Part shown: positions 9,975-24,238 of the stretch, piece by piece | How positions within the stretch are numbered: the first letter of the stretch is position 1 | Layout: every line of letters begins with the position of its first letter | Virus record (IMG/VR): IMGVR_UViG_3300030438_000300 | Direction: 5' to 3' (one strand) | DNA: 30,806 nt | Origin: a virus | Lineage: Duplodnaviria > Heunggongvirae > Uroviricota > Caudoviricetes | The notes under the pieces: model-generated | Seen by the model: only the letters and a program-made list of their open reading frames with translations | What the model was told of the DNA's origin: nothing | The model's database searches: none | Program-made: the position numbers and the translations under genes

Positions 9975-10333
9975 ATACCTACAGCATCACATTACCCTGG
10001 CCTCCGAGCAATAATCGCTATTACCGCCATAATCGCGGGCGCACGCACGTCAGCGCAGAGGGGCAGGCATACCGCGATAACGTCGCCAGAATCATTAAAA
10101 ACGCAATGCTGGATATCGGCCTGGCTATCCCTGTGAAAATCCGCATTGAGTGCCACATGCCGGATCGCCGTCGCCGTGACCTGGATAATCTGCAAAAAGT
10201 CGCTTTTGACGCACTCACTAAAGCAGGTTTCTGGCTGGATGATGCTCAGGTCGTTGATTACCGCGTTGTGAAGATGCCTGTTACCAAAGGTGGGAGGCTG
10301 GAACTGACCATCACCGAAATGGGGAATGAATGA
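9971..10333 (+). CDS. rusA: Holliday junction resolvase RusA
   Basis: 120-aa product (GTG start) [52 protein letters not shown]...[12 protein letters not shown] is essentially E. coli DLP12 RusA as recalled. Confidence 0.92.
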
Positions 10334-10470
10334 TGTTTGAGTTTAATATGGCAGAACTTCTTCGCCACCGCTGGATGCGCCTGCGCTTATATCGTTTCCC
10401 CAGTTCTGTTTTGACCGATTACCGAATACTGAAGAATTACGCCAAAACCCTGACAGGAGCAGGAGTATGA
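10333..10470 (+). CDS. ylcG: Small protein YlcG-like
   Basis: 45-aa [48 protein letters not shown], overlapping the rusA stop (TGATG). Resembles DLP12 YlcG as recalled. Below the ORF-track size cut-off. Confidence 0.6.
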   Translation: MFEFNMAELLRHRWMRLRLYRFPSSVLTDYRILKNYAKTLTGAGV

Positions 10471-10555
10471 AGTCAGAGATAACAATCAACTAATACTGTT
10501 TTGTTGATTTTTGCTTGTAATTGGCGTTCTGGTCTGATTTTTGTGGAGTAAGTTG

Positions 10556-10939
10556 ATGCGTGATATTCAGATGGTTCTTGAACGTTGGGGAGCGTGGGCG
10601 GCTAATAATCATGAAGATGTGACCTGGTCGTCCATTGCCGCCGGTTTTAAGGGATTAATTCCTTCAAAAGTAAAATCTCGCCCGCAATGTTGTGACGATG
10701 ACGCGATGATCATTTGCGGGTGCATGGCCCGTCTGAAAAAGAACAACAGCGATTTGCACGATTTATTAGTAGATTATTATGTAGTCGGTATGACATTCAT
10801 GTCACTGGCAGGTAAGCATTGCTGCTCTGATGGTTATATCGGGAAAAGGTTACAGAAGGCTGAGGGTATAATTGAAGGGATGTTAATGGCATTAGATATC
10901 CGGTTAGAGATGGATATCGTTGTTAATAACTCTAATTAA
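10556..10939 (+). CDS. quuD: Late-gene antiterminator Q (phage 82/DLP12 QuuD type)
   Basis: 127-aa product [33 protein letters not shown]...[18 protein letters not shown]... matches QuuD as recalled. GGAG RBS 8 nt upstream of ATG 10556. The ORF track begins at the upstream TTG 10541. Confidence 0.9.
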
Positions 10940-11128
10940 TATGCCAGTTGTTTACTAAAAGTTATTAAAAATGGGGCGTTGCAACGCCCCCAAAAATAAA
11001 GGGTAATATATAACAGAAGGTTTATATAGTTAGAAGCAAGGTTGTGCTCCTAAAGGAAGTGGCTTGAGGGAGCCACTTATATGTTGGGGAGGCAAAGCCT
11101 CCCGCAACATATCTTTTTCGTAATCAGA

Positions 11129-12211
11129 TTAGAACTGATACACCAGACCTACAGCGACGATGTCGTCGGTATCAATACCAGCTGTTTTGGTAAACTTACT
11201 ATCGTCAATTAAGTTGATTTTGTAATCAACAAAAGTGGACATGTTTTTATTAAAGTAGTAAGTAGCACCGACATCGACATACTTGACTAAGTCTCGGTCA
11301 CCATGAACACCAAGGTCTTTACCTTTTGACTGAAGGTAAGCAACAGATGGTCGCAGACCGAAGTCAAACTGATATTGTGCTACTGCTTCAAAGTTTTGTG
11401 CTTTGTTTGCAATATGGTTATTACCAAAAACGGTCATATTCTGAGTTTCAGAATATGTGGTAGCCAGATAGATATTGTTCGCATCATATTTCAGGCCTGC
11501 AGCCCATACTTCCGCATTTTTGCCGGAGGCATTGAATTTGCTCTTACCATAGGCGACCTGACCGTCAGTGCGATCTGATTTAGCATAGGTTGCACCCACG
11601 CCGAATCCTTCATACTCATAAGTAGTGGAGAAACCGAAACCATCACCATTGGCTTCAGTTACGTCAGTGCGGTCATTTTTACCCTGATACTGAGCAGCAA
11701 AGTTCAGGCCATCGACCAGACCAAAGAAGTCGTTGTTACGATAGGTTGCAACACCAGTGGTGCGACCAGTCATGAACACATCTGTTTGGGTCCAGGTATC
11801 GCCACCGAATTCTGGCAGAACGTCAGTCCACGCACCGATGTCGTATGCTACACCGTAGTTACGGCCGTAATCGATTGAGCCGTAGTCACCGAATTTCAGG
11901 CCTGCAAATGCAAGACGGGTTTTGTCTTTGGAGGAACCTTGAGATTCAGCGCGGTTGCCTTTGAATTCATATTCCCACTGACCGAAACCAGTCAGTTGAT
12001 CGTTGATTTGGGTTTCACCTTTGAAGCCAAGACGGGCATAAGTAGTATCACCATCATCTGCATCATTAGAGGAGAAGTAGTGCTTAGCATTAACTTTCCC
12101 GTACAGATCCAGCTTGTTACTGTCTTTATTATAAATTTCAGCTGCCTGAGCAGACATCGCCATCAGTACTGATGCAGCTACAGCAGAAATTGCCACTGTT
12201 AATTTTTTCAT
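11129..12211 (-). CDS. nmpC: Outer membrane general porin (OmpC/NmpC family), apparently intact
   Basis: 360-aa product with signal peptide [30 protein letters not shown]..., beta-barrel porin-like sequence and C-terminal ...VGLVYQF. Lies between Q and the lysis genes on the opposite strand, as nmpC does in DLP12. Confidence 0.9.
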
Positions 12212-12640
12212 CGTGAGCCCTTTTTTTTGAACTATTATTAAAAAATGATGTCACTGCGCGATAAATATTCATCTAATCAATGTGATTATTTCAAGATGTA
12301 AGTTTTGGTTTCTCGTTTGATTTGTGAAGTAGATCTCTATTTTTATCTGAACTTTTTTCTATCGAATCCTATTCATGGCTCTTGGCTGAATAAAAATAAA
12401 TCTATTAGCCAATTTATATTAACGGCTATTATTTATAAGTGCTCTATAATTTGAAGGTTCAATTTAAACCAGCTAAAAATAACACTGGAAATTATTTGTT
12501 GGTTATTTGTTGAGATTTGCTTATGTATTTGTAGCGGTGTTTTCAATACTCGGTAGCATTCTCGCAAATATCATTTAGTGGTTTACGTACGTAAAAAATT
12601 GGTTATGCTGTTAAGAGTGGTTACTTCGTCACACAGCTTA

Positions 12641-12672
12641 AACCCGCCGTCGAGCGGGTTTTTCCATTTTTT
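12641..12672 (+). terminator. Strong plus-strand intrinsic terminator upstream of the lysis cassette (candidate tR')
   Basis: AACCCGCCGTCGAGCGGGTTTTTCCATTTTTT: GC-rich hairpin followed by a T-run. The reverse complement has no U-tract, so it acts on plus-strand transcripts only. Confidence 0.55.
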
Positions 12673-12800
12673 GAGTCTCGATATTAGCTGATAACCCAAT
12701 ACCTGAGTTATTCACTGACTCCGAGTCTGTTACGTTTCTGCTTTTTTGCGATACGTTGTATTCCCTCAATTTACACCCGCTTTGTCTGCGAGGTGGGGTT

Positions 12801-13016
12801 ATGAAATCCATGGATAAGTTAACAACGGGTGTCGCCTATGGCACCTCAGCAGGTAGTGCCGGGTACTGGTTTTTACAGCTGCTAGATAAAGTCACGCCCT
12901 CACAGTGGGCGGCAATTGGAGTGCTGGGTAGCCTGGTATTTGGCCTGCTGACGTACCTGACAAACCTTTATTTCAAGATTAAAGAAGACAAGCGTAAGGC
13001 TGCACGGGGAGAGTAA
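12801..13016 (+). CDS. essD: Holin (EssD-like, dual-start motif)
   Basis: 71-aa product [81 protein letters not shown]1-K-S-M4 dual-start arrangement. Confidence 0.85.
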
Positions 13017-13020
13017 TTCA

Positions 13021-13371
13021 ATGACTCAAAACTATGAACTGATTGTGAAAGGGATCCGCAATTTTGAGAATAAAGTTACGGTAACTTTAGCGTTACGGGA
13101 CAAAAAACGCTTTGACGGTGAAATTTTTGACCTGGACATCTCGCTGGACCGTGTTGAAGGTGCCGCGCTGGAGTTTTATGAGGCAGCAGCCAGAATGAGC
13201 ATCAGACAGGTCTTCCTGGATGTTGCTGCCGGGTTATGTGAAGGGGATGAGCAGTCGCCGGAAAAGCGCCCCGTAATTTTAGAGGCGCAGAATGTATGGA
13301 TAACCTACAAAGGAAAGCTACCGGGAAGAATTACTGGTTCTCTGAAGACTCCTCCGGAATCACAACCTTAA
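13021..13371 (+). CDS. Hypothetical protein embedded in the lysis cassette (between holin and endolysin)
   Basis: 116-aa ORF starting 4 nt after the holin stop; no motif recognised. By position it is analogous to ydfR (DUF1327) in Qin (recalled; unverified). Confidence 0.6.
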   Translation: MTQNYELIVKGIRNFENKVTVTLALRDKKRFDGEIFDLDISLDRVEGAALEFYEAAARMSIRQVFLDVAAGLCEGDEQSPEKRPVILEAQNVWITYKGKLPGRITGSLKTPPESQP

Positions 13372-13434
13372 GTCACTGACCGGAACAGATAAACCTGTCC
13401 GTGGGCAGAAACCGATAAATCCTGATAAATATCC

Positions 13435-13974
13435 ATGAACGCAAAAATCAGATACGGCCTGTCGGCTGCCGTTCTGGCACTGATTGCCGTCGGTGCGCCC
13501 GCGCCTGATATTCTCGACCAGTTTCTGGATGAAAAAGAAGGTAACCACACAACGACATACCGCGATGGGTCCGGCATCTGGACCATCTGTCGGGGTGCCA
13601 CGATAGTGGATGGAAAACCCGTTTTTCCCGGTATGAAACTGTCGAAGGAAAAATGCGACCAGGTCAACGCCATTGAGCGTGATAAGGCGCTGGCATGGGT
13701 GGAGCGCAATATTAAAGTACTACTGACCGAACCACAAAAAGCGGGTATAGCGTCATTCTGTCCCTATAACATTGGNNNNNNNNNNNNNNNNNNNNNNNNN
13801 NNNNNNNNNNNNNNNNNNNNNNNNNNNGGTGATCGTAAGGGCGCATGCGAGGCGATTCGCTGGTGGATAAAAGATGGTGGGCGCGATTGCCGCATACGTT
13901 CAAATAACTGCTATGGACAGGTTATTCGTCGTGACCAGGAAAGCGCATTAGCCTGTTGGGGGATAGAGCAGTGA
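13435..13974 (+). CDS. rrrD: SAR endolysin (lysozyme, GH24 family; RrrD-like), interrupted by an ambiguous-base run
   Basis: [56 protein letters not shown]... with N-terminal signal-anchor, matching DLP12 RrrD as recalled. Contains the 52-nt N run at 13776-13827; the frame is retained across it. Confidence 0.85.
13776..13827. other. Run of 52 ambiguous bases (N): sequencing/assembly gap or masking
   Basis: Literal n characters in the sequence, inside the endolysin ORF. Confidence 1.
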
Positions 13975-14432
13975 GCAGAGTCGCCGCGATTATTTATGCT
14001 TTGGTTATCTGCATCATCGTCTGCCTGTCGTGGGCGGTCAATCATTACCGTGATAACGCCATCGCCTACAAAGAACAGCGTGATAAAAAAGTCAGTGAGC
14101 TGAAGCAGTCGATCGCCACCATCGCTGACATGCAGCAGCGTCAGCGTGATGTTGCTGCACTCGATGCAAAGTACTCGAGAGAATTAGCCAATGCGAAAGC
14201 TGAAAATGAAACTCTGCGCGCTGATGTTGCCGCTGGTCGTCGTCGGTTGCACATCAAAGCAGTCTGTCAGTCAGTGCGTGAAGCCACCACCGCCTCCGGC
14301 GTGGATAATGCAACCAGCCTCCGACTGGCAGACACCGCTGAACGGGATTATTTCACCCTCAGAGAGAGGCTGATCACTATGCAAAAACAACTGGAAGGAA
14401 CCCAGAAGTATATTAATGAGCAGTGCAGATAG
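13971..14432 (+). CDS. rzpD: i-spanin Rz (RzpD-like)
   Basis: GTG start overlapping the endolysin stop (GTGA). Product [36 protein letters not shown]...QKYINEQCR with N-terminal TM and coiled-coil region. The ORF track begins at TTG 13956. Confidence 0.8.
14191..14373 (+). CDS. rzoD: o-spanin Rz1 (RzoD-like lipoprotein) embedded in the +1 frame of Rz
   Basis: 60-aa product [42 protein letters not shown]... with lipobox VVGC and a proline-rich segment, entirely inside Rz. Confidence 0.8.
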
Positions 14433-14463
14433 AGCTGCCCATATCGATGGGCAACTCATGCAA

Positions 14464-14760
14464 TTATTGTGAGCAATACACACGCGCTTCCAGTGGAGTA
14501 TAAATGCCTAAAGTAATAAAACCGAGAAATCCATTTACGAATGTTTGCTGGGTTTCTGTTTTAACAACATTTTCTGCGCCGCCACAAATTTTGGCTGCAT
14601 CAACAGTTTTCTCCTGTCCAATTCCCGAAACGAAGAAATGATGGGTGATGGTTTCCTTTGGTGTTACTGCTGTCGGTTTGTTTCCAACAGTAAACGTCTG
14701 TTGAGCACATCCTGTAATAAGCATTGCCAGAGCGGCAGAAAACAACATTTTTTTCATCTT
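14464..14760 (-). CDS. bor: Bor lipoprotein (serum-resistance lysogenic conversion factor)
   Basis: 98-aa product MKKMLFSAALAMLITGCAQQTF...GIYTPLEARVYCSQ with lipobox LITGC, matching lambda/DLP12 Bor as recalled. The ORF-track upstream extension was not used. Confidence 0.85.
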   Translation of the reverse strand, partial: KMKKMLFSAALAMLITGCAQQTFTVGNKPTAVTPKETITHHFFVSGIGQEKTVDAAKICGGAENVVKTETQQTFVNGFLGFITLGIYTPLEARVYCSQ

Positions 14761-15140
14761 ATTATCCTGCATTGTTAAAAACGGCAGAATCCTATGTGAC
14801 AACAATTAAACGATAGTTAAATGGATTGATGAAAATTAAAACTATATAGGTGGATGCTCAGCCTATCGGAGGTAGTCAGGATTTGAATGTCAGTCTGTTG
14901 TCGGCATTCTGGCAATGCAATTTGGATAAAGCGGGGATTAAAAAGATAGAGGCGAGCCGGTCAGGTAGAAATGAATCAGGCTCAAAGTGAAGCGGAAAAG
15001 GTCTGTGGCACAAGCTGATGCAGCCATAATTACAGCCTGATGATTTGTGGAATGAAACATGTTGAACCTCCTTAATTGATGTTATTCGAGTGATGAAGGC
15101 ATTCTGTCCTTCTATAGTGTCCAGTAAATCAAACAGGAAA

Positions 15141-15162
15141 CTTGTCCAACGTGTTGGACAAG
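15141..15162. repeat. Perfect 10-bp inverted repeat CTTGTCCAAC-gt-GTTGGACAAG
   Basis: Read directly from the sequence, about 120 bp upstream of the HNH gene. No adjacent T-run on either strand. Confidence 0.6.
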
Positions 15163-15282
15163 CCTCTCCATTAGTGAGTTGTATTGATCACAACTCTACA
15201 AAGAATTCATTACTGGGTAGATGAAAATAGTTTCACTATGAATGGAGGAGGCTATGTCGGTGGCTTCTTCATTGGAGTACAT

Positions 15283-15633
15283 ATGCCCCCACGAATCCCA
15301 CGCGCCTGCCGTAAGCGTGGATGTGCAGGTACAACCACAGACAGTTCTGGTTACTGCGATAAACATCGTGGCGAAGGATGGGTACAGCATCAACGCGGAC
15401 TGAGCCGCCACCAGCGTGGCTATGGCTCGAAATGGGATGCCATACGTGCGCGCATACTGAAGCGTGATAATCATCTGTGTCAGAACTGCCTGCGCAATGG
15501 GAGAGCCGTTGAAGCCAGAACTGTGGACCACATCATTCCGAAAGCTCATGGTGGCACGGATGCAGACAGTAACCTGCAGAGTCTGTGCTGGCCCTGTCAT
15601 AAAGCAAAAACAGCGCGCGAACGCATCAATTGA
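15283..15633 (+). CDS. HNH endonuclease (terminase-associated, HK97 gp74-like)
   Basis: 116-aa product from MPPRIPRACRKRGCAGTTTDSSGYCDKHR... with HNH-type motifs DHIIPKAHGG and CWPCH. GGAG RBS. Immediately upstream of the terminase genes. Confidence 0.8.
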   Translation: MPPRIPRACRKRGCAGTTTDSSGYCDKHRGEGWVQHQRGLSRHQRGYGSKWDAIRARILKRDNHLCQNCLRNGRAVEARTVDHIIPKAHGGTDADSNLQSLCWPCHKAKTARERIN

Positions 15634-15780
15634 TAACAGTTCCCATCTGTAGGGGAGGGGCAGGTCAAATCTCTGCAACCCTGGCTGCTCAGTACCGCCG
15701 CCTGACCTTTCCTCGCATCGCCGCAGGTTCGAAAACTTTTTTTTGGAATGTGATTAAATGATTGATAGGTAAAACCGATT

Positions 15781-16263
15781 ATGTCAGGACCCCTGAAAAC
15801 CCCGCCACGCCTGCATTTGATACGAGGCAACCCCTCAAAGCGCCCCGTTAAAGACCCAAAAAAAACCGCTAAAAAGGATGAAAAATGTCTCCCTAAAATT
15901 CCGCAACATTTAGGGTCGCAGGGGAAGTACTGGTTCAGGCGAATGGCGGAAGAACTGAATGCGGAAGGGATCATTTCTCAGCTTGATGCGCGTGCACTCG
16001 AGTTACTGGTGGAAGCCTACACCGAATACCGGCATCACTGCGAAACACTCGATGTTGAGGGGTATACCTACCGCACGGAAACGCAGAACGGTGATGTGCT
16101 GATTAAGGCACACCCGGCTGCTGCGATGAAAGCGGATGCCTGGAAGCGGATCCGGGCGATGCTTGCAGAATTTGGTATGTCACCGGCAAGCCGGGCGAAA
16201 GTAAATACCGCCGGACCGGATGATGTTGATCCGCTGGCGGAGCTTTTAAAAGCGAGAGACTGA
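15781..16263 (+). CDS. terS: Terminase small subunit (P27 family-like)
   Basis: 160-aa ORF; its stop overlaps the large terminase start. Sequence pattern (KTPPRLHLIRGNPSKRP... ALELLVEAYTEY...) is consistent with P27-type small terminases. Confidence 0.75.
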   Translation: MSGPLKTPPRLHLIRGNPSKRPVKDPKKTAKKDEKCLPKIPQHLGSQGKYWFRRMAEELNAEGIISQLDARALELLVEAYTEYRHHCETLDVEGYTYRTETQNGDVLIKAHPAAAMKADAWKRIRAMLAEFGMSPASRAKVNTAGPDDVDPLAELLKARD

Positions 16264-18020
16264 TGGCAAAAGTGGCTGACGGGATCCGCTACGCCGAACG
16301 TGTTGTTGCAGGAGAAATTGTCGCTGGCGAATTTGTCCGTCTGGCCTGCCAGCGTTTTCTTGATGATCTGAAGTACGGCGAAGAGCGGGGGATTTATTTT
16401 AGTGAACCCCGTGCGCAGCACATCCTTAATTTCTACAAATTTGTGCCCCATGTGAAAGGGGCGCTGGCAGGCCAGCCCATTGAACTGATGGACTGGCATG
16501 TATTTATCCTCATTAATATTTTTGGTTTTGTCATTCCGCTGGTGAATGAAGAGACCGGGGAAGTTGTCATGCGCAGCGATGGCAGTGGACGCCCGGTGAT
16601 GGTGCGCCGGTTCCGGACGGCGTACAACGAAGTCGCCCGTAAAAACGCAAAATCAACCCTGTCATCGGGTATCGGTCTGTATATGACGGGGGCAGATGGT
16701 GAAGGTGGTGCTGAGGTGTATTCAGCCGCAACCACGCGTGATCAGGCCAGAATCGTGTTTGAAGACGCCAAAAATATGGTCAGAAAAGCCCGGTCGACAC
16801 TCGGGCGGTTGTTTGACTTCAACAAGCTGGCGATTTACCAGGAGCAGAGCGCATCAAAATTTGAACCGCTTTCCTCGGATGCAAACAACCTGGACGGTCT
16901 GAACATCCACTGCGCCATTATTGATGAGCTGCATGCTCATAAAACCCGTGACGTGTGGGACGTTCTGGAAACGGCAACCGGTGCCCGTCTGCAGTCTCTG
17001 TTATTTGGCATCACCACGGCTGGCTTTAACAAGGAAGGGATTTGCTACGAGCAGCGCGATTACGCCATTAAGGTATTGCGAGGCTATAACAGCGACGTGG
17101 AGGGCGCGGTAAAAGACGACTCCTACTTTGCGATCATTTACACGCTCGATGAGGGAGATGATCCGTTTGATGAAACGGTCTGGCAGAAAGCGAATCCTGG
17201 CCTGGGCATCTGTAAACGCTGGGATGATCTGCGTCGTCTGGCGAAAAAAGCGAAGGAGCAGGTCTCTGCGCGGGTGAATTTTTTTACCAAACACATGAAT
17301 GTGTGGGTCACTGCCGAATCTGCCTGGATGGATATGATTAAGTGGGAGAAGTGCGAATACATTGCTCCACAACATGAGCTGAAAACATATCCCATGTGGG
17401 TCGGCGTAGACCTTGCTCATAAGATTGATATCTGTGCGGCGGCAAAACTCTGGCGAACCGATAACGGACATGTTCATGCTGATTTTAAATTCTGGCTTCC
17501 GGAAGGACGGCTGGAGCGATGCTCGCGGCAGCAGGCAGAACTTTACCGGAAGTGGGCGGAGATGGATAAGCTCATCCTGACGGATGGTGATGTTATCGAT
17601 CATGCTCAGATAAAAAGTGACTTACTGGAATGGATTGGCGGTGAAAACCTCAGGGAACTGGGATTTGACCCGTGGAGCGCAATGCAGTTCAGCCTGGCAC
17701 TGGCTGAAGAAGGGATACCGCTGGTGGAGGTTCCGCAGACGGTCCGCAATCTGTCAGAGGCCATGAAGGAAACGGAATCACTGGTTTATGCCGGGCGTTT
17801 CCATCACAGCAATCATCCGGTCATGAACTGGATGATGTCTAACGTTACGGTAAAACCGGACAAAAACGACAACATCTTCCCGAATAAATCCACGCCTGAA
17901 GCCAAAATCGACGGCCCTGTTGCACTTTTTACGGCCATGAGCCGCTTTCTGGTAAATGGCGGGGGCGTGAATGACTTTCTGTCCACGCTTGATCCTGATG
18001 AGGACCTGTTAATTCTGTGA
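16263..18020 (+). CDS. terL: Terminase large subunit
   Basis: 585-aa ORF with ATPase and nuclease-region features, in the conserved terS-terL-portal order. Walker B-like IHCAIIDELHAHKT. Confidence 0.9.
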   Translation: MAKVADGIRYAERVVAGEIVAGEFVRLACQRFLDDLKYGEERGIYFSEPRAQHILNFYKFVPHVKGALAGQPIELMDWHVFILINIFGFVIPLVNEETGEVVMRSDGSGRPVMVRRFRTAYNEVARKNAKSTLSSGIGLYMTGADGEGGAEVYSAATTRDQARIVFEDAKNMVRKARSTLGRLFDFNKLAIYQEQSASKFEPLSSDANNLDGLNIHCAIIDELHAHKTRDVWDVLETATGARLQSLLFGITTAGFNKEGICYEQRDYAIKVLRGYNSDVEGAVKDDSYFAIIYTLDEGDDPFDETVWQKANPGLGICKRWDDLRRLAKKAKEQVSARVNFFTKHMNVWVTAESAWMDMIKWEKCEYIAPQHELKTYPMWVGVDLAHKIDICAAAKLWRTDNGHVHADFKFWLPEGRLERCSRQQAELYRKWAEMDKLILTDGDVIDHAQIKSDLLEWIGGENLRELGFDPWSAMQFSLALAEEGIPLVEVPQTVRNLSEAMKETESLVYAGRFHHSNHPVMNWMMSNVTVKPDKNDNIFPNKSTPEAKIDGPVALFTAMSRFLVNGGGVNDFLSTLDPDEDLLIL

Positions 18021-18167
18021 AACAGCTTATTACTGATATGACCGGGCTGATCGGTTTCGGTTTGCTCACTGCTGGCGTTTATCTGTATGCAGGTCTGCCA
18101 GCGTCTCTGATGCTGTCGGGCTGTTTGTTGCTGCTTTATGCACTGGTGGTGTCCATGAGGAGAAAAC

Positions 18168-19394
18168 ATGCTTCTTGATGCTCTGTTTCGCAGTGAGCCT
18201 CTGGAAAATCCCTCGGTTCCGGTAACCGGAGAGGCCGCTGAGACGGATAATATTTTTGCCCGGGATGTGTATGTCAGTCCGGAAACATCCATGAAGCTGG
18301 CTGCTGTCTATGCCTGTATTTATGTTATTTCATCCAGTGTGGCTCAGATGCCCCTGCATGTGATGCGAAAAACGAATGAGCATGTTCAGCCTGCACGCGA
18401 TCATCCGTTGTTCTGGCTCGTTCATGATGAACCGAATGCCTGGCAGACCAGCTATAAGTGGCGGGAACTGAAGCAGCGTCATGTGCTGGGGTGGGGCAAT
18501 GGTTATACGTGGGTAAAACGTAATCGTCGTGGAGAGGTTACCAGCCTTGAATGCTGTATGCCATGGGAAACTACGTTACTTAACACCGGTGGGCGTCATA
18601 CTTACGGGGTGTATAACGAAGAGGGTGCATTTGCGGTAAGTCCGGACGACATGATCCATATCAGGGCGCTGGGAAACAATCAGAAAATGGGACTGAGCCC
18701 GATCATGCAGCATGCTGAAACCATTGGTATGGGAATGAGTGGCCAGCAGTATACCAGCGCCTTTTTTAACGGTAATGCCCGTCCTGCCGGTATTATTTCT
18801 GTGAAAAATGAACTGAACGAACAAAGCTGGGGCAGGCTTAAAAATATGTGGCAGCGGGCGGTGACAGCGCTTCGCAGCCAGGAAAATAAAACCATGTTGC
18901 TGCCTGCGCAACTGGATTACCGCGCTCTGACAGTTTCTCCGGTGGATGCTCAGATCATTGATATGACCAAGCTGAACCGGTCGATGATTGCCGGGATTTT
19001 TAATGTCCCGGCGCACATGATTAATGACCTGGAAAAAGCCACATTTTCGAATATTACGCAGCAGGCGATTCAGTTTGTTCGCTACACGATGATGCCCTGG
19101 GTTGCGAACTGGGAGCAGGAGCTTAACCGTCGCCTGTTTACCCGTACAGAACGGGCTGCCGGGTATTACGTTCGTTTCAACCTCACGGGGTTGCTCCGTG
19201 GGACCCCACAGGAGCGTGCGCAGTTCTATCACTTTGCCATTACAGATGGCTGGATGAGTCGGAATGAAGCCAGGGCATTTGAGGATATGAACCCGGTTGA
19301 CGGTCTGGATGAAATGCTGGTCAGCGTAAATGCAGCAAATCCGTTGAATAACTTTAAAGATACGAAAGGCAAAGAGGAAAAGAACGATGAATGA
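18168..19394 (+). CDS. Portal protein (HK97 family)
   Basis: 408-aa ORF with GAGGAG RBS, directly following terL and preceding the prohead protease. Confidence 0.9.
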   Translation: MLLDALFRSEPLENPSVPVTGEAAETDNIFARDVYVSPETSMKLAAVYACIYVISSSVAQMPLHVMRKTNEHVQPARDHPLFWLVHDEPNAWQTSYKWRELKQRHVLGWGNGYTWVKRNRRGEVTSLECCMPWETTLLNTGGRHTYGVYNEEGAFAVSPDDMIHIRALGNNQKMGLSPIMQHAETIGMGMSGQQYTSAFFNGNARPAGIISVKNELNEQSWGRLKNMWQRAVTALRSQENKTMLLPAQLDYRALTVSPVDAQIIDMTKLNRSMIAGIFNVPAHMINDLEKATFSNITQQAIQFVRYTMMPWVANWEQELNRRLFTRTERAAGYYVRFNLTGLLRGTPQERAQFYHFAITDGWMSRNEARAFEDMNPVDGLDEMLVSVNAANPLNNFKDTKGKEEKNDE

Positions 19395-19986
19395 CCGTGA
19401 AACGCGCTGTTACAGCGGGGAGGTGCGGGCGGAACAATATGATAATGCCCCGACCCACATTCTGGGGTATGGCTCGGTATTTAACAGTCGTTCAGAACCT
19501 CTGTGGGGATTTCGTGAAATCATCAAGCCGGGGGCTTTTGATGATGTACTGAATGATGATGTACGTGGCTTGTTTAATCATGATCCTAATTTCATTCTCG
19601 GACGAAGTTCTGCCGGCACGTTGTCATTGTCGGTGGATGAACGCGGTTTACGTTATGACATTGTTGCACCGGATACTCCGACTATTTGTGACCTGGTGCT
19701 GTCTCCAATGTTGCGTGGTGACATTAATCAGTCCTCGTTCGCGTTTCGTGTCGCCCGTGACGGAGAGAGCTGGTATGAAGACGACGAGGGGATTGTTATC
19801 CGGGAAATCACGCGCATTTCTCGTCTGTATGACGTCAGCCCGGTGACATATCCGGCCTATCAGGACGCAGACTCTGGTGTCCGCTCAATGAAAGCCTGGC
19901 AGGAAGCGCGGGCGAGTGGTGCGCTGAAGAAAGCTGTTAACGAACGAATGGCGCGTGAGCGTCTTTTGACCCTTCTTAATGCATAA
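19387..19986 (+). CDS. Prohead maturation protease (HK97 family, S78-like)
   Basis: 199-aa ORF overlapping the portal stop. Position and size are typical of an HK97-type protease. Confidence 0.85.
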   Translation: MNDRETRCYSGEVRAEQYDNAPTHILGYGSVFNSRSEPLWGFREIIKPGAFDDVLNDDVRGLFNHDPNFILGRSSAGTLSLSVDERGLRYDIVAPDTPTICDLVLSPMLRGDINQSSFAFRVARDGESWYEDDEGIVIREITRISRLYDVSPVTYPAYQDADSGVRSMKAWQEARASGALKKAVNERMARERLLTLLNA

Positions 19987-20000
19987 GGATACTACTGACG

Positions 20001-21218
20001 ATGAAACTTCATGAGATGAAGCAAAAACGAAACACCATTGCAAAGGATATGCGTGCACTGCATGAAAAAATTGGTGATAACGCATGGACTGATGAGCAAC
20101 GGGCAGAGTGGAACAGGGCGAAAGCTGAGCTGGATGCGCTGGATGAGCAAATCGCCCGTGAAGAAGAGTTGCGCCGTCAGGATCAGGCATATGTGGATGA
20201 GTCCGGGCCGGAAGAGCGCCAGAATAATGAGGCGGAGAACGGGAAAAAGGCGGTGGAAGAGAAGCGCGCTGCGGCATTTAACCGTTTTCTGCGTGCCGGA
20301 TTTGCAGAACTGAATGCTGAAGAGCGTAATCTGATGCGTGAACTGCGGGCTCAGAGTGTAACAACGGATTCTCAGGGCGGATATACGGTGCCCACGCAGA
20401 TGCGTAACAAAATCATTGACACCATGAAGGCTTATGGCGGGATTGCCAGTGTGGCGCAACTTCTGACCACATCAACCGGGCAGGATATCACCTGGTCAAC
20501 GTCTGATGGCACGACTGAAGAGGGCGAACTGCTGGCGGAGAATACAGCCGCAACGGAACAGGATGTGACGTTCGGGACCGCTATTCTGGGGGCTAAAAAG
20601 CTGTCATCAAAAATAATTCGTGTGTCCAATGAGCTGCTCCAGGACAGTGGGGTGGATATTGAATCTTATCTGGCAAACCGTATTGCCCAGCGTATTGGTC
20701 GTGGAGAGGCAAAATATCTGGTTCAGGGGACCGGAACGGGATCACCGTTACAGCCAAAAGGGCTGGCAGCGTCGGTGACGGGAACCATCCAGACTGCAGC
20801 CTCTGCCGCTTTCACCTGGAAAGAAATGAATGCCCTGAAACATGCTATTGATCCGGCATATCGTGGTGGGCCGAAATACCGCTGGGCATTCAATGATGCC
20901 ACATTGCAGACTATTGAAGAGATGGAGGATGGACAGAAACGCCCGTTATGGCTGCCGGATATTGCAGGCGGTACGCCGGCTACTGTGCTGGGGATCCCTT
21001 ATGTTATTGATCAGGCTATTGACGGGATTGGTACCGGAAAAAAATTCATTTTCCTGGGGGATTTCAACCGCTTTATTATTCGCCGCGTTACTTATATGGA
21101 ACTGAAACGTCTGGTTGAGCGTTATGCTGAGTTTGATCAGGTGGCATTTCTGGCTTTCCATCGTTTTGACTGTGTGCTGGAAGATGTGGCAGCCATCAAG
21201 GCGCTCACTGGCAAATAA
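20001..21218 (+). CDS. Major capsid protein (HK97 fold) with N-terminal coiled-coil delta/scaffold domain
   Basis: 405-aa ORF with AGGA RBS. N-terminal ~100 aa are highly charged and helical (EQRAEWNRAKAELDALDEQIAREEELRRQ), as for HK97-type delta domains. Confidence 0.9.
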   Translation: MKLHEMKQKRNTIAKDMRALHEKIGDNAWTDEQRAEWNRAKAELDALDEQIAREEELRRQDQAYVDESGPEERQNNEAENGKKAVEEKRAAAFNRFLRAGFAELNAEERNLMRELRAQSVTTDSQGGYTVPTQMRNKIIDTMKAYGGIASVAQLLTTSTGQDITWSTSDGTTEEGELLAENTAATEQDVTFGTAILGAKKLSSKIIRVSNELLQDSGVDIESYLANRIAQRIGRGEAKYLVQGTGTGSPLQPKGLAASVTGTIQTAASAAFTWKEMNALKHAIDPAYRGGPKYRWAFNDATLQTIEEMEDGQKRPLWLPDIAGGTPATVLGIPYVIDQAIDGIGTGKKFIFLGDFNRFIIRRVTYMELKRLVERYAEFDQVAFLAFHRFDCVLEDVAAIKALTGK

Positions 21219-21240
21219 CCACTCGTTGTTCAGTTACAGA

Positions 21241-21264
21241 CCGCGCCGACGCGGTTTTTTTATG
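21241..21264 (+). terminator. Intrinsic terminator/attenuator downstream of the major capsid gene
   Basis: ACCGCG-CCGA-CGCGGT hairpin followed by TTTTTTTA, 23 nt after the capsid stop. A second hairpin GCCCGCACAGTGTTGCGGGC follows. Confidence 0.7.
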
Positions 21265-21294
21265 CCCGCACAGTGTTGCGGGCAGGAGTTTCTG

Positions 21295-21612
21295 ATGGCA
21301 GCAATAGTGGAAAAACTCAGGGCGCAGTGCCGTATTGATACAGATGATGCAACTGATGATGAGTTACTGATGCTGTATTTCCGGGCTGCCTGCCGCAAGG
21401 CAGAAAATTTTATCAACCGTAAGCTTTATGAGGAGACGGTGCCGGAAGGTGATCCTGAAGGGGTGCTTATAGCTGATGATGTTTTGCTGGCGCTCATGTT
21501 GCTGGTCGGGCACTGGCACGAAAACCGGGAAAATTCCTCAGATGTCAGCAAGGCACCAGTCCCGTTTGGTTTTTCTTCTCTGCTGGAGCCTTATCGTTTT
21601 ATTCCTTTGTAG
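21295..21612 (+). CDS. Head-tail connector protein (gp6-like)
   Basis: 105-aa product MAAIVEKLRAQCRIDTDDATDDELLMLYFRAACRKAENFINRKL... with GGAG RBS 6 nt upstream. The ORF-track upstream extension overlaps the capsid gene and the terminator. Confidence 0.7.
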   Translation: MAAIVEKLRAQCRIDTDDATDDELLMLYFRAACRKAENFINRKLYEETVPEGDPEGVLIADDVLLALMLLVGHWHENRENSSDVSKAPVPFGFSSLLEPYRFIPL

Positions 21613-21620
21613 GAGGAGAC

Positions 21621-21959
21621 ATGCAGGCGGGCAGATTACGTGATCGCGTAATTATTCTGAATGTCACCACCGCCCGCTCTCCGTCAGGGCATCCGGTGGA
21701 GACGGTGACGGAGGGAGCTACCGTATGGGCAGAAGTTAAGGGTATCAGCGGGAGGGAGATAATCTCAGGCGGAGCAGAAACCGCTCAGGCTACGGTCAGA
21801 GTCTGGATGAGATTCCGGCGCGATGTGACAGCGACTTCACGTCTGAAAGTGCTGACCGGTGCATTTAAAGGGGCCATTCTGGGTATAGAAGGTCCACCAA
21901 TACCGGATGCACGCGCTACCCGGCTTGAAATACTCTGCAGCCTGAAGGGGAATGTGTGA
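21621..21959 (+). CDS. Head closure / head-tail adaptor protein
   Basis: 112-aa ORF in the conserved position after the connector gene, with GGAGG RBS. Confidence 0.7.
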   Translation: MQAGRLRDRVIILNVTTARSPSGHPVETVTEGATVWAEVKGISGREIISGGAETAQATVRVWMRFRRDVTATSRLKVLTGAFKGAILGIEGPPIPDARATRLEILCSLKGNV

Positions 21960-22405
21960 TGGATTTCAGTCTTGATTTTTCCGGCCTGGCGGATATTGCA
22001 CGGGATTTGGAGACGCTCAGCAGGGCAGAAAACAATAAGGTTCTGCGCGATGCCACCCGTGCCGGTGCTGAAGTTATGCGGGATGCAGTTGTTGAACGTG
22101 CGCCGGAGCGAACCGGGAAACTGAAGAAAAATGTGGTTGTTCTCACTCAGCGTTCAAAGCGTCGGGGGGAAATTATCTCGGGTGTCCACATTCGCGGACG
22201 GAACCTGCGAACCGGAAACAGTGATAACAGCATGAAAGCCAGCGATCCCCGAAATGCATTTTACTGGCGCTTTGTGGAGCTGGGAACGATAAACATGCCC
22301 GCGCATCCATTCATTCGCCCGGCTTTCGATACGACAGAGGAGCTGGCGGCGCAGGTTGCCATACAGCGAATGAATCAGGCTATTGATGAGGTCTTAAGTA
22401 AATGA
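21956..22405 (+). CDS. HK97 gp10-like head-tail joining protein
   Basis: 149-aa ORF; ATGA overlap with the preceding gene; conserved gene order. Confidence 0.65.
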   Translation: MMDFSLDFSGLADIARDLETLSRAENNKVLRDATRAGAEVMRDAVVERAPERTGKLKKNVVVLTQRSKRRGEIISGVHIRGRNLRTGNSDNSMKASDPRNAFYWRFVELGTINMPAHPFIRPAFDTTEELAAQVAIQRMNQAIDEVLSK

Positions 22406-22746
22406 GGGAGGCCACACTGTATTCCCTGTTGTCTCAGCTGGCCGGAGGACAGGTTTATCCTTATGTGGTCCCGCTGACGGAGGGAAAGCCTGCGGTATCT
22501 CCGCCGTGGCTGGTGTTTTCTGTGGTGTCTGACACGGCATCTGATGTGCTTGATGGGCAGGCTGAATCCAGAATTACCGTGCAGATCGATGTCTGGGCGA
22601 CAGTACCTGATGACGCAGATAATATTCGTGAGCAGGCGCTTGATGCGGTAAGGAAACTGGCACCCTCCGTTATTTCTAAAACGCAGGGTTATGATCCTGA
22701 TTCCCGTCTGAGCAGAGCCACGCTTGAATTTCAGGTAATAGCCTGA
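22402..22746 (+). CDS. Tail completion/terminator protein (gpU-like position)
   Basis: 114-aa ORF overlapping the previous stop, immediately before the major tail gene. Confidence 0.6.
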   Translation: MREATLYSLLSQLAGGQVYPYVVPLTEGKPAVSPPWLVFSVVSDTASDVLDGQAESRITVQIDVWATVPDDADNIREQALDAVRKLAPSVISKTQGYDPDSRLSRATLEFQVIA

Positions 22747-22767
22747 GGTCGTTAATGATTTTACCCA

Positions 22768-22790
22768 CCCGCCGCTGGCGGGTTTTTTAT
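22768..22790 (+). terminator. Intrinsic terminator/attenuator upstream of the major tail gene
   Basis: CCCGCC-GCTG-GCGGG hairpin followed by TTTTTTATTTT. Confidence 0.65.
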
Positions 22791-22805
22791 TTTCAGGAGA
22801 CGAGT

Positions 22806-23510
22806 ATGTCCTCTAATTTTGAGCGTTCGCAACTGACGAAAATTATGATTTCGTCTGCACCGGTAACAGCAGAAACCCTGGATTCTGCCAGCTATCTTGG
22901 CCTGAGCTGTACAATCAAAGAAGTGCAGTTTACCGCTGGACAAAAGCAGGATATTGATGTCACCACGCTGTGTTCTGTTGAGCAGGAAAATATTAACGGT
23001 CTTGGTGCCGCGTCAGAGATTTCCATGTCAGGCAACTTTTACCTCAATGCTGCCCAGAACGCGTTGCGCAGTGCCTATGACAATGACACCACGTATGGCT
23101 TTAAAGTTATTTTTCCGTCAGGCAACGGATTTACCTTTATGGCAGAAGTGCGTCAGCATACCTGGTCTGCAGGAACCAATGGTGTTGTGGCTGCAACGTT
23201 TTCCCTGCGTCTGAAAGGCAAACCTGTGCTGACGACAGCTTCGCTGAAAGTGAAGGTTGATTTAAAAAGCACGCTGCGGGTTGCTTCCGGAGCGAAACTT
23301 GAAATGGCGGTTGAGGCTGCGGGTGGTGTGCCGCCTTATTCTTATGTCTGGAAGAAAGGTGGTTCTCCTGTTTCCGGACAGACGGCGGCAACGTTCAGTA
23401 AGGCATCAGCATCATCCGGTGATGCGGGTGCGTATACCTGCGAGATTTCTGATTCAGCGAGCCCGGTTAACAAAGTGACCTCCACTTCCTGCACTGTAAC
23501 CGTCAGTTAA
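22806..23510 (+). CDS. Major tail protein with C-terminal Ig-like (Big_2-type) domain
   Basis: 234-aa product from MSSNFERSQLTKIM... with AGGAG RBS. The C-terminal ~90 aa (LKVKVDLKSTLRVASGAKLEMAVEAAGGVPPYSYVWKKGGSPVSGQTAATFS...YTCEISD) fit an Ig-like domain pattern. Confidence 0.8.
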   Translation: MSSNFERSQLTKIMISSAPVTAETLDSASYLGLSCTIKEVQFTAGQKQDIDVTTLCSVEQENINGLGAASEISMSGNFYLNAAQNALRSAYDNDTTYGFKVIFPSGNGFTFMAEVRQHTWSAGTNGVVAATFSLRLKGKPVLTTASLKVKVDLKSTLRVASGAKLEMAVEAAGGVPPYSYVWKKGGSPVSGQTAATFSKASASSGDAGAYTCEISDSASPVNKVTSTSCTVTVS

Positions 23511-23896
23511 TGAGGATGGATGTGATGACTAAAAATATCCGTAATCTGGCACTGGCAACGATGTCGGGGTTTCGCCATAAAACCGTTGATGTGCCTGAAT
23601 GGGAGGGAGCAACGGTTGTGTTACGGGAACCTTCTGCAGAAGCCTGGTTGCGCTGGCAGGAGATCGTTAAAGCAAAAGATGATGAGACACCGTTATCCGT
23701 TGCGGAGCGCGCCCGCCGAAATCTGGAGGCAGATGTTGAACTGTTCATTGATGTTCTGTGTGATACCGGACTGCAACCCGTATTTTCAGAGGATGATCGT
23801 GAACAGGTGATTGCCGTGTATGGCCCGGTGCATGCGCGGCTTCTTCGGCAGTCTCTGGAACTGATCAGTGATGCCGGCGAGGTTAAAAAAAAGTAG
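23510..23896 (+). CDS. Tail assembly chaperone (gpG-like)
   Basis: 128-aa ORF ending ...GEVKKK-stop, with the slippery run immediately before the stop. Confidence 0.75.
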   Translation: MRMDVMTKNIRNLALATMSGFRHKTVDVPEWEGATVVLREPSAEAWLRWQEIVKAKDDETPLSVAERARRNLEADVELFIDVLCDTGLQPVFSEDDREQVIAVYGPVHARLLRQSLELISDAGEVKKK

Positions 23897-24198
23897 CGCT
23901 TCCGGGGATGCGTTTTCTGATGATGCTGGCGCTCAGGATGGGGCGCACATTGTCAGAGTTACGCCGGGAAATGTCCGCATCAGAAATCATGATGTGGGCA
24001 GAATTTGACAGGTTCAGCCCGCTGGGGGACGAACGGGCTGATTTCCGGGCTGCCCAGATTGTTTCAGCTGTTTACGGTGCGCAGGGGGTCAAAGTGTCAC
24101 TGAATGATGCGCTTCTTCAGTGGGAGAAGGAGCAGACAGAAGGCGCTTCAGATCCATTTGCCGGACTGGAAAACGCGCTTTTAATAGTGTCTCAGTGA
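23893..24198 (+). CDS. T segment of tail assembly chaperone GT, reached by programmed -1 frameshift from G
   Basis: Heptamer A-AAA-AAG at 23887-23893 sits in the last codons of G. The -1 frame is open from 23887 to 24198 and encodes ...VALPGMRFLMMLALRMGRTLSELRREMSASEIMMWAEF.... Confidence 0.65.
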   Translation, partial: VALPGMRFLMMLALRMGRTLSELRREMSASEIMMWAEFDRFSPLGDERADFRAAQIVSAVYGAQGVKVSLNDALLQWEKEQTEGASDPFAGLENALLIVSQ

Positions 24199-24206
24199 GT
24201 CAACAT

Positions 24207-24228
24207 AACCGCTTCGGCGGTTTTTTTT
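24207..24228 (+). terminator. Intrinsic terminator/attenuator between the GT chaperone and tape measure genes
   Basis: AACCGC-TTCG-GCGGTT hairpin followed by T8. Confidence 0.65.
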
Positions 24229-24238
24229 CGTCCGGAGA

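What the first reader, a model, noticed from the sequence alone, without database searches (positions are those of the whole stretch)
11129..12211. Intact prophage-encoded OmpC/NmpC-family porin lying antisense in the late operon
A full-length porin gene (signal peptide through C-terminal YQF) sits between Q and the lysis genes on the opposite strand, with its own AT-rich upstream region at 12212-12760. In E. coli K-12 DLP12 the equivalent nmpC is inactivated by an insertion; here it appears intact. This is a lysogenic-conversion candidate that could alter outer-membrane permeability or phage receptor availability. Q-dependent late transcription must read antisense through it.
Basis: partly seen in the sequence, partly recalled or inferred. 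Interest (0 to 1): 0.5.

Follow-up and report, generated by a model that had tools for sequence, protein, structure and literature searches.

The report
Ordinary prophage NmpC/Lc-type porin gene
This is an intact copy of the well-known NmpC/Lc porin gene that many lambda-like E. coli prophages carry as a self-contained accessory gene; it is real and probably expressed, but ordinary, and it most likely lies just outside the phage late operon rather than antisense inside it.

Summary
Window 11129..12211 (-) is an uninterrupted 360-aa general porin. It has a full-length Pfam Porin_1 match (E 1.9e-151), a signal peptide, the PEFGG constriction loop and a C-terminal YQF. It lies between Q (10556-10939) and holin S (12801-13016) on the opposite strand.

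It is already known. The protein is 100% identical to the porin of phage Perceval (E. coli LF82), which is reported as expressed in the lysogen. The exact sequence occurs on at least 1000 public contigs. It is 92% identical to NmpC, 81% to Salmonella OmpD and 66% to OmpC. Its promoter region is about 99% identical to the mapped K-12 PnmpC. Its 3' UTR is about 97% identical to the K-12 nmpC 3' UTR, where the literature places the ipeX RNA that lowers OmpC.

One claim is not supported. The only homologue of the late promoter pR' (12582-12609, matching the annotated 933W/VT1-Sakai pR') plus a terminator hairpin (12640-12661) lies between the porin and S. The 1.6-kb porin cassette therefore sits between Q and pR'. 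Q-dependent late transcription should start beyond the porin and run away from it. This rests on homology; no start site was mapped for this phage.

Novelty: already known. Interest: low.

The parts
10556..10939 (+). Late antiterminator Q (QuuD / Q933 type, distantly Q21 family), 127 aa
   Evidence: 79% identical over 126 aa to 933W Q. PDB match to Q21, E 7.6e-8. Annotated quuD in near-identical genomes. Homology to 933W Q DNA stops at about 10888 and the protein diverges after about residue 120.
10963..10990 (-). Intrinsic terminator of the porin transcript: stem GGGGCGTTGCAACGCCCC (10973-10990), then ATTTTTAATA on the minus strand
   Evidence: Terminator scan. It is the last hairpin of the folded 3' UTR. 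It has no T-run on the + strand, so it should act only on minus-strand transcription (sequence).
10966..11128 (-). Porin 3' UTR of about 163 nt, homologue of the K-12 nmpC 3' UTR where ipeX is placed
   Evidence: 97% mean column identity in a three-way alignment with the K-12 and Perceval regions, 5 substitutions relative to K-12.
11129..12211 (-). Porin ORF: 360-aa precursor, about 337-aa mature protein, NmpC/Lc/OmpD clade
12143..12211 (-). Signal peptide coding region (residues 1-23, [23 protein letters not shown], cleaved before AEIYNK)
   Evidence: Solved mature OmpC chains align from query residue 24. AQA is an AXA signal-peptidase I motif (read from the sequence).
12212..12410 (-). PnmpC promoter and regulatory region (-199 to -1 from the start codon) with the 5' UTR
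   Evidence: 98-100% identical to the K-12 nmpC upstream region in 100-nt windows. In K-12 deleting -199..-1 removes the promoter. 5' RACE maps a sigma-70 start at a G. The paper's annotated sequence figure marks Crp activation and OmpR, IHF and MprA repression (PMC11677980). My candidate elements are inference only: -35 TTGAAA 12294-12289, -10 GAATAT 12270-12265, Crp-like sites at 12281-12296 and 12323-12338 (no more than chance window-wide).
12212..12580 (.). AT-rich divergent control region between the porin start codon and pR'
   Evidence: 27.5-29% GC.
12582..12609 (+). Late promoter pR' homologue: -35 TTTACG, 16-nt spacer, -10 TATGCT; inferred start near 12616
   Evidence: Aligns with the annotated pR' of 933W (L004 1502-1529) and VT1-Sakai. 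Single copy in the window within 3 mismatches. 99-100% identical in K-12 DLP12 and Perceval although the flanks diverge. dRNA-seq in Sakai puts the pR' start 258 nt upstream of tR', which fits the annotated promoter (PMC7547250).
12640..12670 (+). Hairpin AAACCCGCCGTCGAGCGGGTTT followed by TTCCATTTTT: candidate tR'
   Evidence: Terminator scan. Homologous to the first annotated terminator after pR' in 933W and VT1-Sakai. No second terminator was found before S.
12801..13016 (+). Holin S (essD type), first gene of the late/lysis operon

Best explanation
The locus is a self-contained accessory-gene ('moron') cassette of about 1.6 kb (roughly 10900-12580), inserted between the Q gene and the late promoter pR' of a lambdoid prophage and read leftward. 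It encodes an NmpC/Lc/OmpD-clade general diffusion porin.

Shown or supported by close homology: the gene has its own promoter, essentially identical to K-12 PnmpC, a sigma-70 promoter described as Crp-activated and OmpR/IHF/MprA-repressed. It has its own intrinsic terminator. The precursor carries a Sec signal peptide. The mature protein keeps every constriction-zone residue of OmpF/OmpC and the C-terminal Phe.

Inferred: it is exported, inserted by the BAM machinery, and forms a trimeric 16-strand barrel that adds to or replaces host porins in the lysogen. [quoted passage not shown] Expression would therefore swap host OmpC (and, from my memory of the primary paper, OmpF) for the phage porin, changing permeability and the receptors offered to other phages and colicins.

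Also inferred: Q acts in trans at pR' (12582-12609). Late transcription starts near 12616, passes the hairpin at 12640-12661 and enters S, running away from the porin. Only early pR-derived read-through past Q could run antisense into the porin.
For: Porin identity: Pfam Porin_1 full length, E 1.9e-151. NCBIfam OmpC subfamily 521 bits against a cut-off of 484. Solved OmpC/OmpK/OmpF/PhoE structures at E 1e-137 to 1e-111. K39, R60, R99, D130, E134 and R150 (OmpF K16, R42, R82, D113, E117, R132) and PEFGG are invariant in the alignment.

Clade: 92% identical to NmpC, 83% to a 370-aa E. coli type, 81% to Salmonella OmpD, 66% to OmpC, 62% to OmpF.

Known and common: 100% identical to the phage Perceval porin. 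The exact protein is on at least 1000 contigs in a cluster of 2741 members. The Q-porin-S region is present in 36 phage records and about 2389 of 5426 complete E. coli genomes at 80% coverage or more.

Expression: the Perceval gene LF82_1505 is 10-fold above local background in the LF82 lysogen (PMC9928086). Prophage nmpC copies in CFT073 are higher at 37 C at both RNA and protein level (PMC12890032). The K-12 PnmpC start was mapped by 5' RACE (PMC11677980), and the window's upstream region is about 99% identical.

3' UTR.

pR' position. phiP27 and SfII also carry other genes directly upstream of the pR' homologue; in phiP27 these lie between it and Q. This suggests the Q-pR' gap is a recurrent insertion point.
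Against: No transcript data exist for this particular prophage. The pR' assignment rests on homology (64 of 83 nt to 933W) plus a published start-site distance in Sakai, not on direct mapping in a DLP12-type phage. In Sakai the dominant 3' end of the pR' leader is at a second terminator 258 nt downstream, not at the hairpin that is conserved here, so calling 12640-12661 tR' is an inference. The primary ipeX paper and the PA-2 lc paper could not be read, so the ipeX boundaries and its effect on OmpF come from a review and from memory. The structure prediction failed (mean pLDDT 35), so the fold rests on sequence homology to solved porins. The AT-rich promoter could be silenced in some hosts or conditions.
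Confidence: 0.85

Rival explanations
1. One reading: pR' abuts Q as in lambda, 82, 21 and 933W. The porin therefore lies inside the late operon, and Q-modified RNA polymerase must transcribe it antisense for about 1.7 kb before reaching S.
For: In 933W and VT1-Sakai pR' overlaps the 3' end of Q, and that is the textbook arrangement. No start site has been mapped for this phage.
Against: The stretch after Q (10940-11128) holds no pR'-like sequence; the only copy within 3 mismatches is at 12582. The promoter scan found no + strand promoter between 10940 and 12580. Homology with 933W jumps from Q (ending at 10888) straight to 12581-12663. The pR' block is 99-100% conserved next to S in K-12 and Perceval while its flanks diverge.
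Confidence: 0.08
2. The gene is intact but quiescent in the lysogen, silenced through its AT-rich promoter. It would then be cargo without a phenotype under ordinary conditions.
For: Upstream region is 27-29% GC. K-12 PnmpC is annotated with several repressor sites (OmpR, IHF, MprA). nmpC has been called a quiescent porin gene in E. coli B, known to me only from the title of a reference cited.
Against: The identical gene is 10-fold above local background in LF82. Prophage nmpC copies are detected as RNA and protein in CFT073 at 37 C. K-12 PnmpC gave the brighter of the two 5' RACE products, the nmpC/IS5 fusion transcript.
Confidence: 0.1
3. The main selected product is the 3' UTR RNA (host porin down-regulation and receptor removal), with the porin serving chiefly to replace the lost permeability. 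This differs in emphasis from the best explanation, not in anatomy.
For: The 3' UTR is as conserved as the coding flanks (96-99% to K-12) and strongly structured. ipeX is reported to lower OmpC as part of the porin transcript.
Against: The ORF shows strong purifying selection: 93 codons with only synonymous change against 29 with amino-acid change relative to the K-12 allele. The protein is therefore itself under selection.
Confidence: 0.2

Closest known systems
Porin of Escherichia phage Perceval (prophage of AIEC LF82; LF82_1505, annotated 'Outer membrane porin, nmpC homolog')
   Same: Protein 100% identical. Same Q-porin-S layout. DNA 100% identical across most of the ORF. Reported as a moron expressed in the lysogen.
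   Different: The promoter-distal part of the upstream region (12375-12574) is only 80-87% identical. In the window that stretch is K-12-like instead.
NmpC of the E. coli K-12 cryptic prophage DLP12 (qsr')
   Same: Same position and orientation between quuD and essD. Promoter region, 5' UTR, first 148 residues, 3' UTR and Q are 96-100% identical. Overall 92% protein identity to the 365-aa NmpC type.
   Different: The K-12 gene is split by IS5B at a CTAA target. The window reads ACC AAA at that position, so the CTAA target is absent. The 3' two-thirds of the ORF is only 64-80% identical in DNA. Five residues are deleted and 29 changed, clustered where OmpF has loops L4-L8 (loop boundaries are from memory of the OmpF structure).
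Lc (protein 2) of lambdoid phage PA-2, the classical lysogenic-conversion porin
   Same: Same kind of gene in the same kind of phage. Public sources label this protein and its close relatives 'outer membrane porin protein LC'. From memory of the literature: Lc expression lowers OmpC, the PA-2 receptor, and the lc 3' region matches ipeX.
   Different: No direct alignment was possible, because the PA-2 lc sequence and paper were not available in the tools. Which allele (the 360-aa or the 365-aa type) equals Lc was not determined.
OmpD of Salmonella enterica and Citrobacter (chromosomal)
   Same: 81% identity over the full length, with the same constriction residues. Same clade, distinct from OmpC (66%) and OmpF (62%).
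   Different: I take OmpD to be chromosomal rather than prophage-borne (from general knowledge; its locus was not examined). Its signal peptide and loop sequences differ.
Stx-phage late region (933W, VT1-Sakai): Q - pR' - tR' - cargo - S
   Same: Homologous Q (79%) and homologous pR' plus first hairpin. Accessory genes sit in the Q-to-S interval.
   Different: In Stx phages the cargo (tRNAs, stx) lies downstream of pR' in the sense direction, so it is Q-dependent. Here the cargo lies upstream of pR', is read in the opposite direction, and has its own promoter.

Membership tests
General bacterial porin family (Pfam PF00267 Porin_1; enterobacterial OmpC/OmpF/PhoE type) | Full-length profile match above the curated threshold | tested here: met
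   504.7 bits against a cut-off of 23.7; profile positions 1-337 of 337.
General bacterial porin family (Pfam PF00267 Porin_1; enterobacterial OmpC/OmpF/PhoE type) | Cleavable Sec signal peptide; mature protein starts AE(I/V)YNK | tested here: met
   Residues 1-23 end in AQA. Mature solved OmpC chains align from residue 24.
General bacterial porin family (Pfam PF00267 Porin_1; enterobacterial OmpC/OmpF/PhoE type) | Constriction zone: L3 PEFGG motif with D113/E117, facing basic K16, R42, R82, R132 (OmpF numbering) | tested here: met
   K39, R60, R99, D130, E134, R150 and PEFGG are invariant in the alignment with OmpC, OmpF, OmpD and NmpC. The mapping to OmpF numbering was done by hand.
General bacterial porin family (Pfam PF00267 Porin_1; enterobacterial OmpC/OmpF/PhoE type) | C-terminal aromatic residue (terminal Phe) for outer-membrane assembly | tested here: met
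   The protein ends ...VGLVYQF.
General bacterial porin family (Pfam PF00267 Porin_1; enterobacterial OmpC/OmpF/PhoE type) | 16-strand beta-barrel, trimeric | tested here: inconclusive
   The AlphaFold2 model from a shallow 25-sequence alignment failed (mean pLDDT 35.3). The fold is inferred from 62-66% identity to solved OmpF/OmpC over the whole length.
General bacterial porin family (Pfam PF00267 Porin_1; enterobacterial OmpC/OmpF/PhoE type) | Channel activity in membranes | not testable with these tools
   Needs bilayer or liposome-swelling assays.
NCBIfam equivalogs OmpF (NF007446) and PhoE (NF007544); subfamily OmpC (NF007841) | Score above the curated cut-off | tested here: not met
   OmpF 481.5 against 583 and PhoE 503.7 against 599: not met. 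The broader OmpC subfamily model is met (521.2 against 484), which explains the RefSeq name 'porin OmpC'. The protein is not the orthologue of chromosomal OmpC (66% identity).
Prophage NmpC/Lc porin cassette of lambdoid phages | High identity to NmpC, higher than to chromosomal OmpC, OmpF or PhoE | tested here: met
   92% to NmpC, 66% to OmpC, 62% to OmpF.
Prophage NmpC/Lc porin cassette of lambdoid phages | Located between Q and S of a lambdoid (pro)phage, on the opposite strand | tested here: met
Prophage NmpC/Lc porin cassette of lambdoid phages | PnmpC-type promoter region upstream | tested here: met
   About 99% identity to the K-12 upstream 420 bp. Promoter function is shown in K-12 only.
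Prophage NmpC/Lc porin cassette of lambdoid phages | ipeX-type 3' UTR ending in an intrinsic terminator | tested here: met
   97% mean identity to the K-12 and Perceval nmpC 3' UTRs; terminator; structured fold. Regulatory activity was not tested.
Prophage NmpC/Lc porin cassette of lambdoid phages | Direct sequence match to PA-2 Lc | not tested
   The PA-2 lc sequence is not in the collections I could query. Only source-given names 'porin protein LC' were seen.
Gene of the Q-dependent late operon | Lies downstream of pR' within the antiterminated transcription unit, sense or antisense | tested here: not met
   The sole pR' homologue is at 12582-12609 and points away from the porin.
Phage 'moron' (autonomous accessory gene) | Own promoter and terminator; expressed from the repressed prophage | tested here: met
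   Promoter by homology, terminator, and expression of the identical gene in the LF82 lysogen. Not measured for this prophage itself.

The most novel reading that the evidence does not exclude
Prophage porin alleles may be exchanged as half-gene cassettes. The window is K-12-like (96-100%) in Q, the 3' UTR, the promoter and the first third of the ORF. It carries a Perceval-type 3' two-thirds, only 64-80% identical in DNA to K-12, that encodes surface loops L4-L8. Recombination within the conserved 5' third would let lambdoid prophages re-assort the exposed loops under pressure from phages, colicins or antibody, while keeping the regulatory flanks. A second, less likely idea is that the shared AT-rich region between the divergent PnmpC and pR' promoters couples host Crp/OmpR input to the constitutive pR' leader RNA.
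Probability: 0.3. Interest if true: 0.3.

Novelty: already known. Interest (0 to 1): 0.1.

Why it matters
It matters little as a discovery. NmpC/Lc porins of lambdoid prophages have been known since the 1980s, and this exact allele is annotated, widespread and reported as expressed. The useful outcome is a corrected map of the locus: Q, then the porin cassette read leftward (terminator, ipeX-type 3' UTR, ORF, PnmpC), then pR' with its hairpin, then S. If that map is right, porin expression in the lysogen and late transcription after induction do not collide head-on. It also separates this arrangement from cargo such as stx, which sits downstream of pR' and depends on Q. For anyone studying this strain, the prophage probably alters outer-membrane porin composition, with possible effects on antibiotic permeability, heat tolerance and sensitivity to porin-dependent phages.

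Tried and rejected
1. Rfam search of 10000-14000 at a permissive threshold gave only a chance Trp-leader hit on the pR' hairpin (20.8 bits against a gathering score of 41). It returned no ipeX or other match, so the 3' UTR was identified by alignment to K-12 instead.

2. Structure prediction from a 25-sequence alignment failed (pLDDT 35). No fold search was run. Loop assignments rest on alignment to OmpF and remembered loop boundaries.

3. The Crp-site scan gave 116 window-wide matches against 121 expected. The two candidates upstream of the porin carry no statistical weight, and I could not fix the PnmpC start to a base.

4. The primary papers on ipeX (Castillo-Keller 2006), qsr'/nmpC (Highton 1985) and the quiescent porins of E. 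coli B (Prilipov 1998) are not held.

5. Sakai genome coordinates from the StxS paper did not line up with the current RefSeq version, where the published coordinates fall inside Q. I therefore used the 258-nt distance between the start site and tR' as the consistency check.

6. The svsR sRNA paper and the R-loop paper proved unrelated to this locus.

7. The figure of 2389 genomes cannot be read as a count of intact genes, because the search joins pieces up to 1.8 kb apart and so includes IS5-interrupted copies. The exact-protein look-up is the better measure of how common the intact allele is.

Full report
**1. The observation**

It matches Pfam Porin_1 over the whole profile (E 1.9e-151). 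It also matches solved OmpC, OmpK36/37, PhoE and OmpF structures at E 1e-137 to 1e-111, with alignments that begin at residue 24, the mature N-terminus AEIYNK.
- Residues 1-23 end in AQA, and the protein ends in YQF.
- Q (10556-10939, +) lies to its left and holin S (12801-13016, +) to its right.
- GC falls to 27.5-29% over 12200-12600 but recovers to 38-47% by 12500-12800.
- K-12 nmpC is indeed split by IS5B. Removing the element and its 4-bp duplication restores a 365-aa ORF.

**2. What the protein is**

An alignment with reference porins gives these identities:

| Reference | Identity |
|---|---|
| 365-aa NmpC type | 92% |
| 370-aa E. coli prophage-type allele | 83% |
| Salmonella OmpD | 81% |
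| K-12 OmpC | 66% |
| K-12 OmpF | 62% |

- The protein therefore belongs to the NmpC/Lc/OmpD clade and is not the orthologue of OmpC. RefSeq names it 'porin OmpC' because only the broad OmpC subfamily model passes its cut-off; the OmpF and PhoE equivalogs do not.
- All six constriction-zone residues of OmpF (K16, R42, R82, D113, E117, R132) and the PEFGG motif are invariant (the mapping to OmpF numbering is mine).
- A structure prediction from a shallow alignment failed (pLDDT 35) and is not used.

**3. How well known it is**

- The protein is 100% identical to the porin of phage Perceval, a prophage of E. coli LF82, where it is annotated as an nmpC homologue.
- The exact sequence is on at least 1000 public contigs, in a 90%-identity cluster of 2741 members. 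Sources name it 'porin OmpC' or 'outer membrane porin protein LC'.
- The Q-porin-S segment is found at 80% coverage or more in 36 phage records and about 2389 of 5426 complete E. coli genomes. The second count may include IS-interrupted copies, because the search joins nearby pieces.
- The Perceval gene is listed among prophage genes expressed in the LF82 lysogen, 10-fold above local background (PMC9928086).
- Prophage nmpC copies in CFT073 are more highly expressed at 37 C at both RNA and protein level, and NmpC has been linked to heat resistance (PMC12890032).

**4. Control elements of the porin gene**

- The 420 bp upstream are about 99% identical to K-12. In K-12 the -199..-1 segment carries PnmpC, a sigma-70 promoter whose start (a G) was mapped by 5' RACE. 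The paper's annotated sequence figure marks Crp activation and OmpR, IHF and MprA repression (PMC11677980).
- E. coli nmpC mRNA is also reported to be a RybB target (PMC3333887), and the window's 5' region is essentially K-12-like.
- I could not fix the start site or the Crp sites to the base. My candidates are inference only, and the Crp scan was no better than chance window-wide.
- Downstream of the stop codon, about 163 nt lead to a strong minus-strand intrinsic terminator at 10973-10990. This 3' UTR has 97% mean identity to the K-12 and Perceval nmpC 3' UTRs and is highly structured (z = -7.8).
[quoted passage not shown] From memory of the primary paper, it also lowers OmpF, and the PA-2 lc 3' region is identical to it. 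I could not read that paper.
- In K-12 the IS5 separates the promoter and ORF from this region. In the window they are contiguous.

**5. Where the late promoter is**

This is the main correction.
- A distant search with 12480-12800 hit the annotated 'promoter | terminator' directly after Q in 933W and VT1-Sakai.
- In those records pR' is at locus positions 1502-1529, a putative qut at 1543-1550 and a first terminator at 1562-1584. These align with window 12582-12609 (TTTACG, 16 nt, TATGCT) and the hairpin at 12640-12661.
- The window's Q is 79% identical to 933W Q. It is distantly related to the structurally solved Q21.
- Homology with 933W is colinear: Q 1078-1412 matches window 10554-10888, and 1501-1582 matches window 12581-12663. 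The gap between the blocks is 88 bp in 933W and 1692 bp in the window.
- No second pR'-like sequence exists in the window within 3 mismatches. No + strand promoter-like site was found between Q and 12580.
- The pR' block is 99-100% identical in K-12 DLP12 and Perceval, although sequences on both sides diverge to about 80-94% from one or both of them.
- Published dRNA-seq and Term-seq in Sakai place the pR' start 258 nt upstream of tR'. This fits the annotated promoter and the second annotated terminator (PMC7547250).
- phiP27 and SfII also have unrelated genes directly upstream of the pR' homologue. In phiP27 a 1.2-kb gene lies between it and Q.
- The porin cassette therefore lies between Q and pR'. 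Q-dependent transcription should start near 12616 and run rightward into S, not antisense through the porin.

Two caveats apply. No start site has been mapped in a DLP12-type phage in anything I could read. In Sakai the main 3' end is at the second terminator, so the role of the conserved first hairpin as tR' is inferred. Early pR-derived transcription that passes Q could still enter the porin antisense, because the 10973-10990 hairpin has no T-run on the + strand.

**6. Mosaic structure**

- Sliding identity shows the window to be 96-100% K-12-like in Q, the 3' UTR, the first 300 nt or so of the ORF and the promoter.
- Over the 3' two-thirds of the ORF it is only 64-80% K-12-like, and there it is 100% Perceval-like.
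- Over 12375-12574 it is K-12-like and only 80-87% Perceval-like.
- Against the K-12 allele there are 93 codons with synonymous change only, 29 with amino-acid change and 5 deleted residues. The amino-acid changes fall in short patches at 182-187, 217-227, 263-267, 303-306 and 335-347, plus residues 149 and 151 either side of R150.
- These patches align with OmpF loops L4-L8 (loop limits are from memory). This is ordinary lambdoid mosaicism combined with loop variation. It is a lead, not a finding.

**7. Verdict**

The gene is real and intact, and it is probably expressed. It is also an already known and very common lysogenic-conversion gene.

Noticed in passing
window 12582-12670 (+): Homologue of the 933W/Sakai late promoter pR' and its first downstream hairpin. 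In a lysogen it should make a short constitutive leader RNA of about 50 nt. In Stx phages the longer pR' leader is processed into the regulatory sRNA StxS (PMC7547250). Whether the DLP12-type leader has any function is unknown.
   Followed up: partly
window 10966-11128 (-): The porin 3' UTR is the homologue of the K-12 nmpC 3' UTR where ipeX is placed: 5 substitutions relative to K-12, four stacked hairpins plus the terminator, z = -7.8. Rfam returned no match for it.
   Followed up: partly
window about 11130-11140 and about 11780-11920: Mosaic breakpoints at or within the porin ORF. The 3' two-thirds is a Perceval-type allele (100% identical), while the flanks are K-12 DLP12-type (96-100%). 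Amino-acid differences cluster at predicted loops L4-L8.
   Followed up: partly
window about 10888-10939: Q diverges from 933W Q after about residue 120 and ends about 17 residues earlier. The left junction of the porin cassette therefore lies inside the 3' end of Q.
   Followed up: partly
window 11170-11180 (-): The CTAA target at which IS5 sits in K-12 nmpC (ACT AAA) reads ACC AAA in this allele, so that insertion site is absent here.
   Followed up: yes
window 13776-13827: A run of 52 N (masked bases) inside the endolysin ORF 13435-13974. It shows as a block of X in the translation.
   Followed up: no
window 14464-14757 (-): A Bor-type lipoprotein gene on the opposite strand just after Rz/Rz1. 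It is a second accessory gene in the lysis region, matching the annotated Bor of Perceval at the corresponding position.
   Followed up: partly
window 13021-13371 (+) and 13368-13709 (-): A YdfR-family ORF lies between S and the endolysin, followed by a 113-aa antisense ORF. The near-identical genome S1-CAM-01-C annotates a YdfR family protein and a small opposite-strand hypothetical protein in this stretch.
   Followed up: no
window 14240-27800: The early region through S is 99.9% identical to a prophage of strain S1-CAM-01-C integrated next to ybhC. The head and tail genes have no match to that prophage's lambda-like structural module, so the window is a mosaic with a different structural module.
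   Followed up: no
L010 (phiP27) 239-1468 and L009 (SfII) 421-1443: Other lambdoid phages carry unrelated genes directly upstream of the pR' homologue; in phiP27 the gene lies between it and Q. This suggests the gap is a recurrent insertion point for accessory genes.
   Followed up: partly
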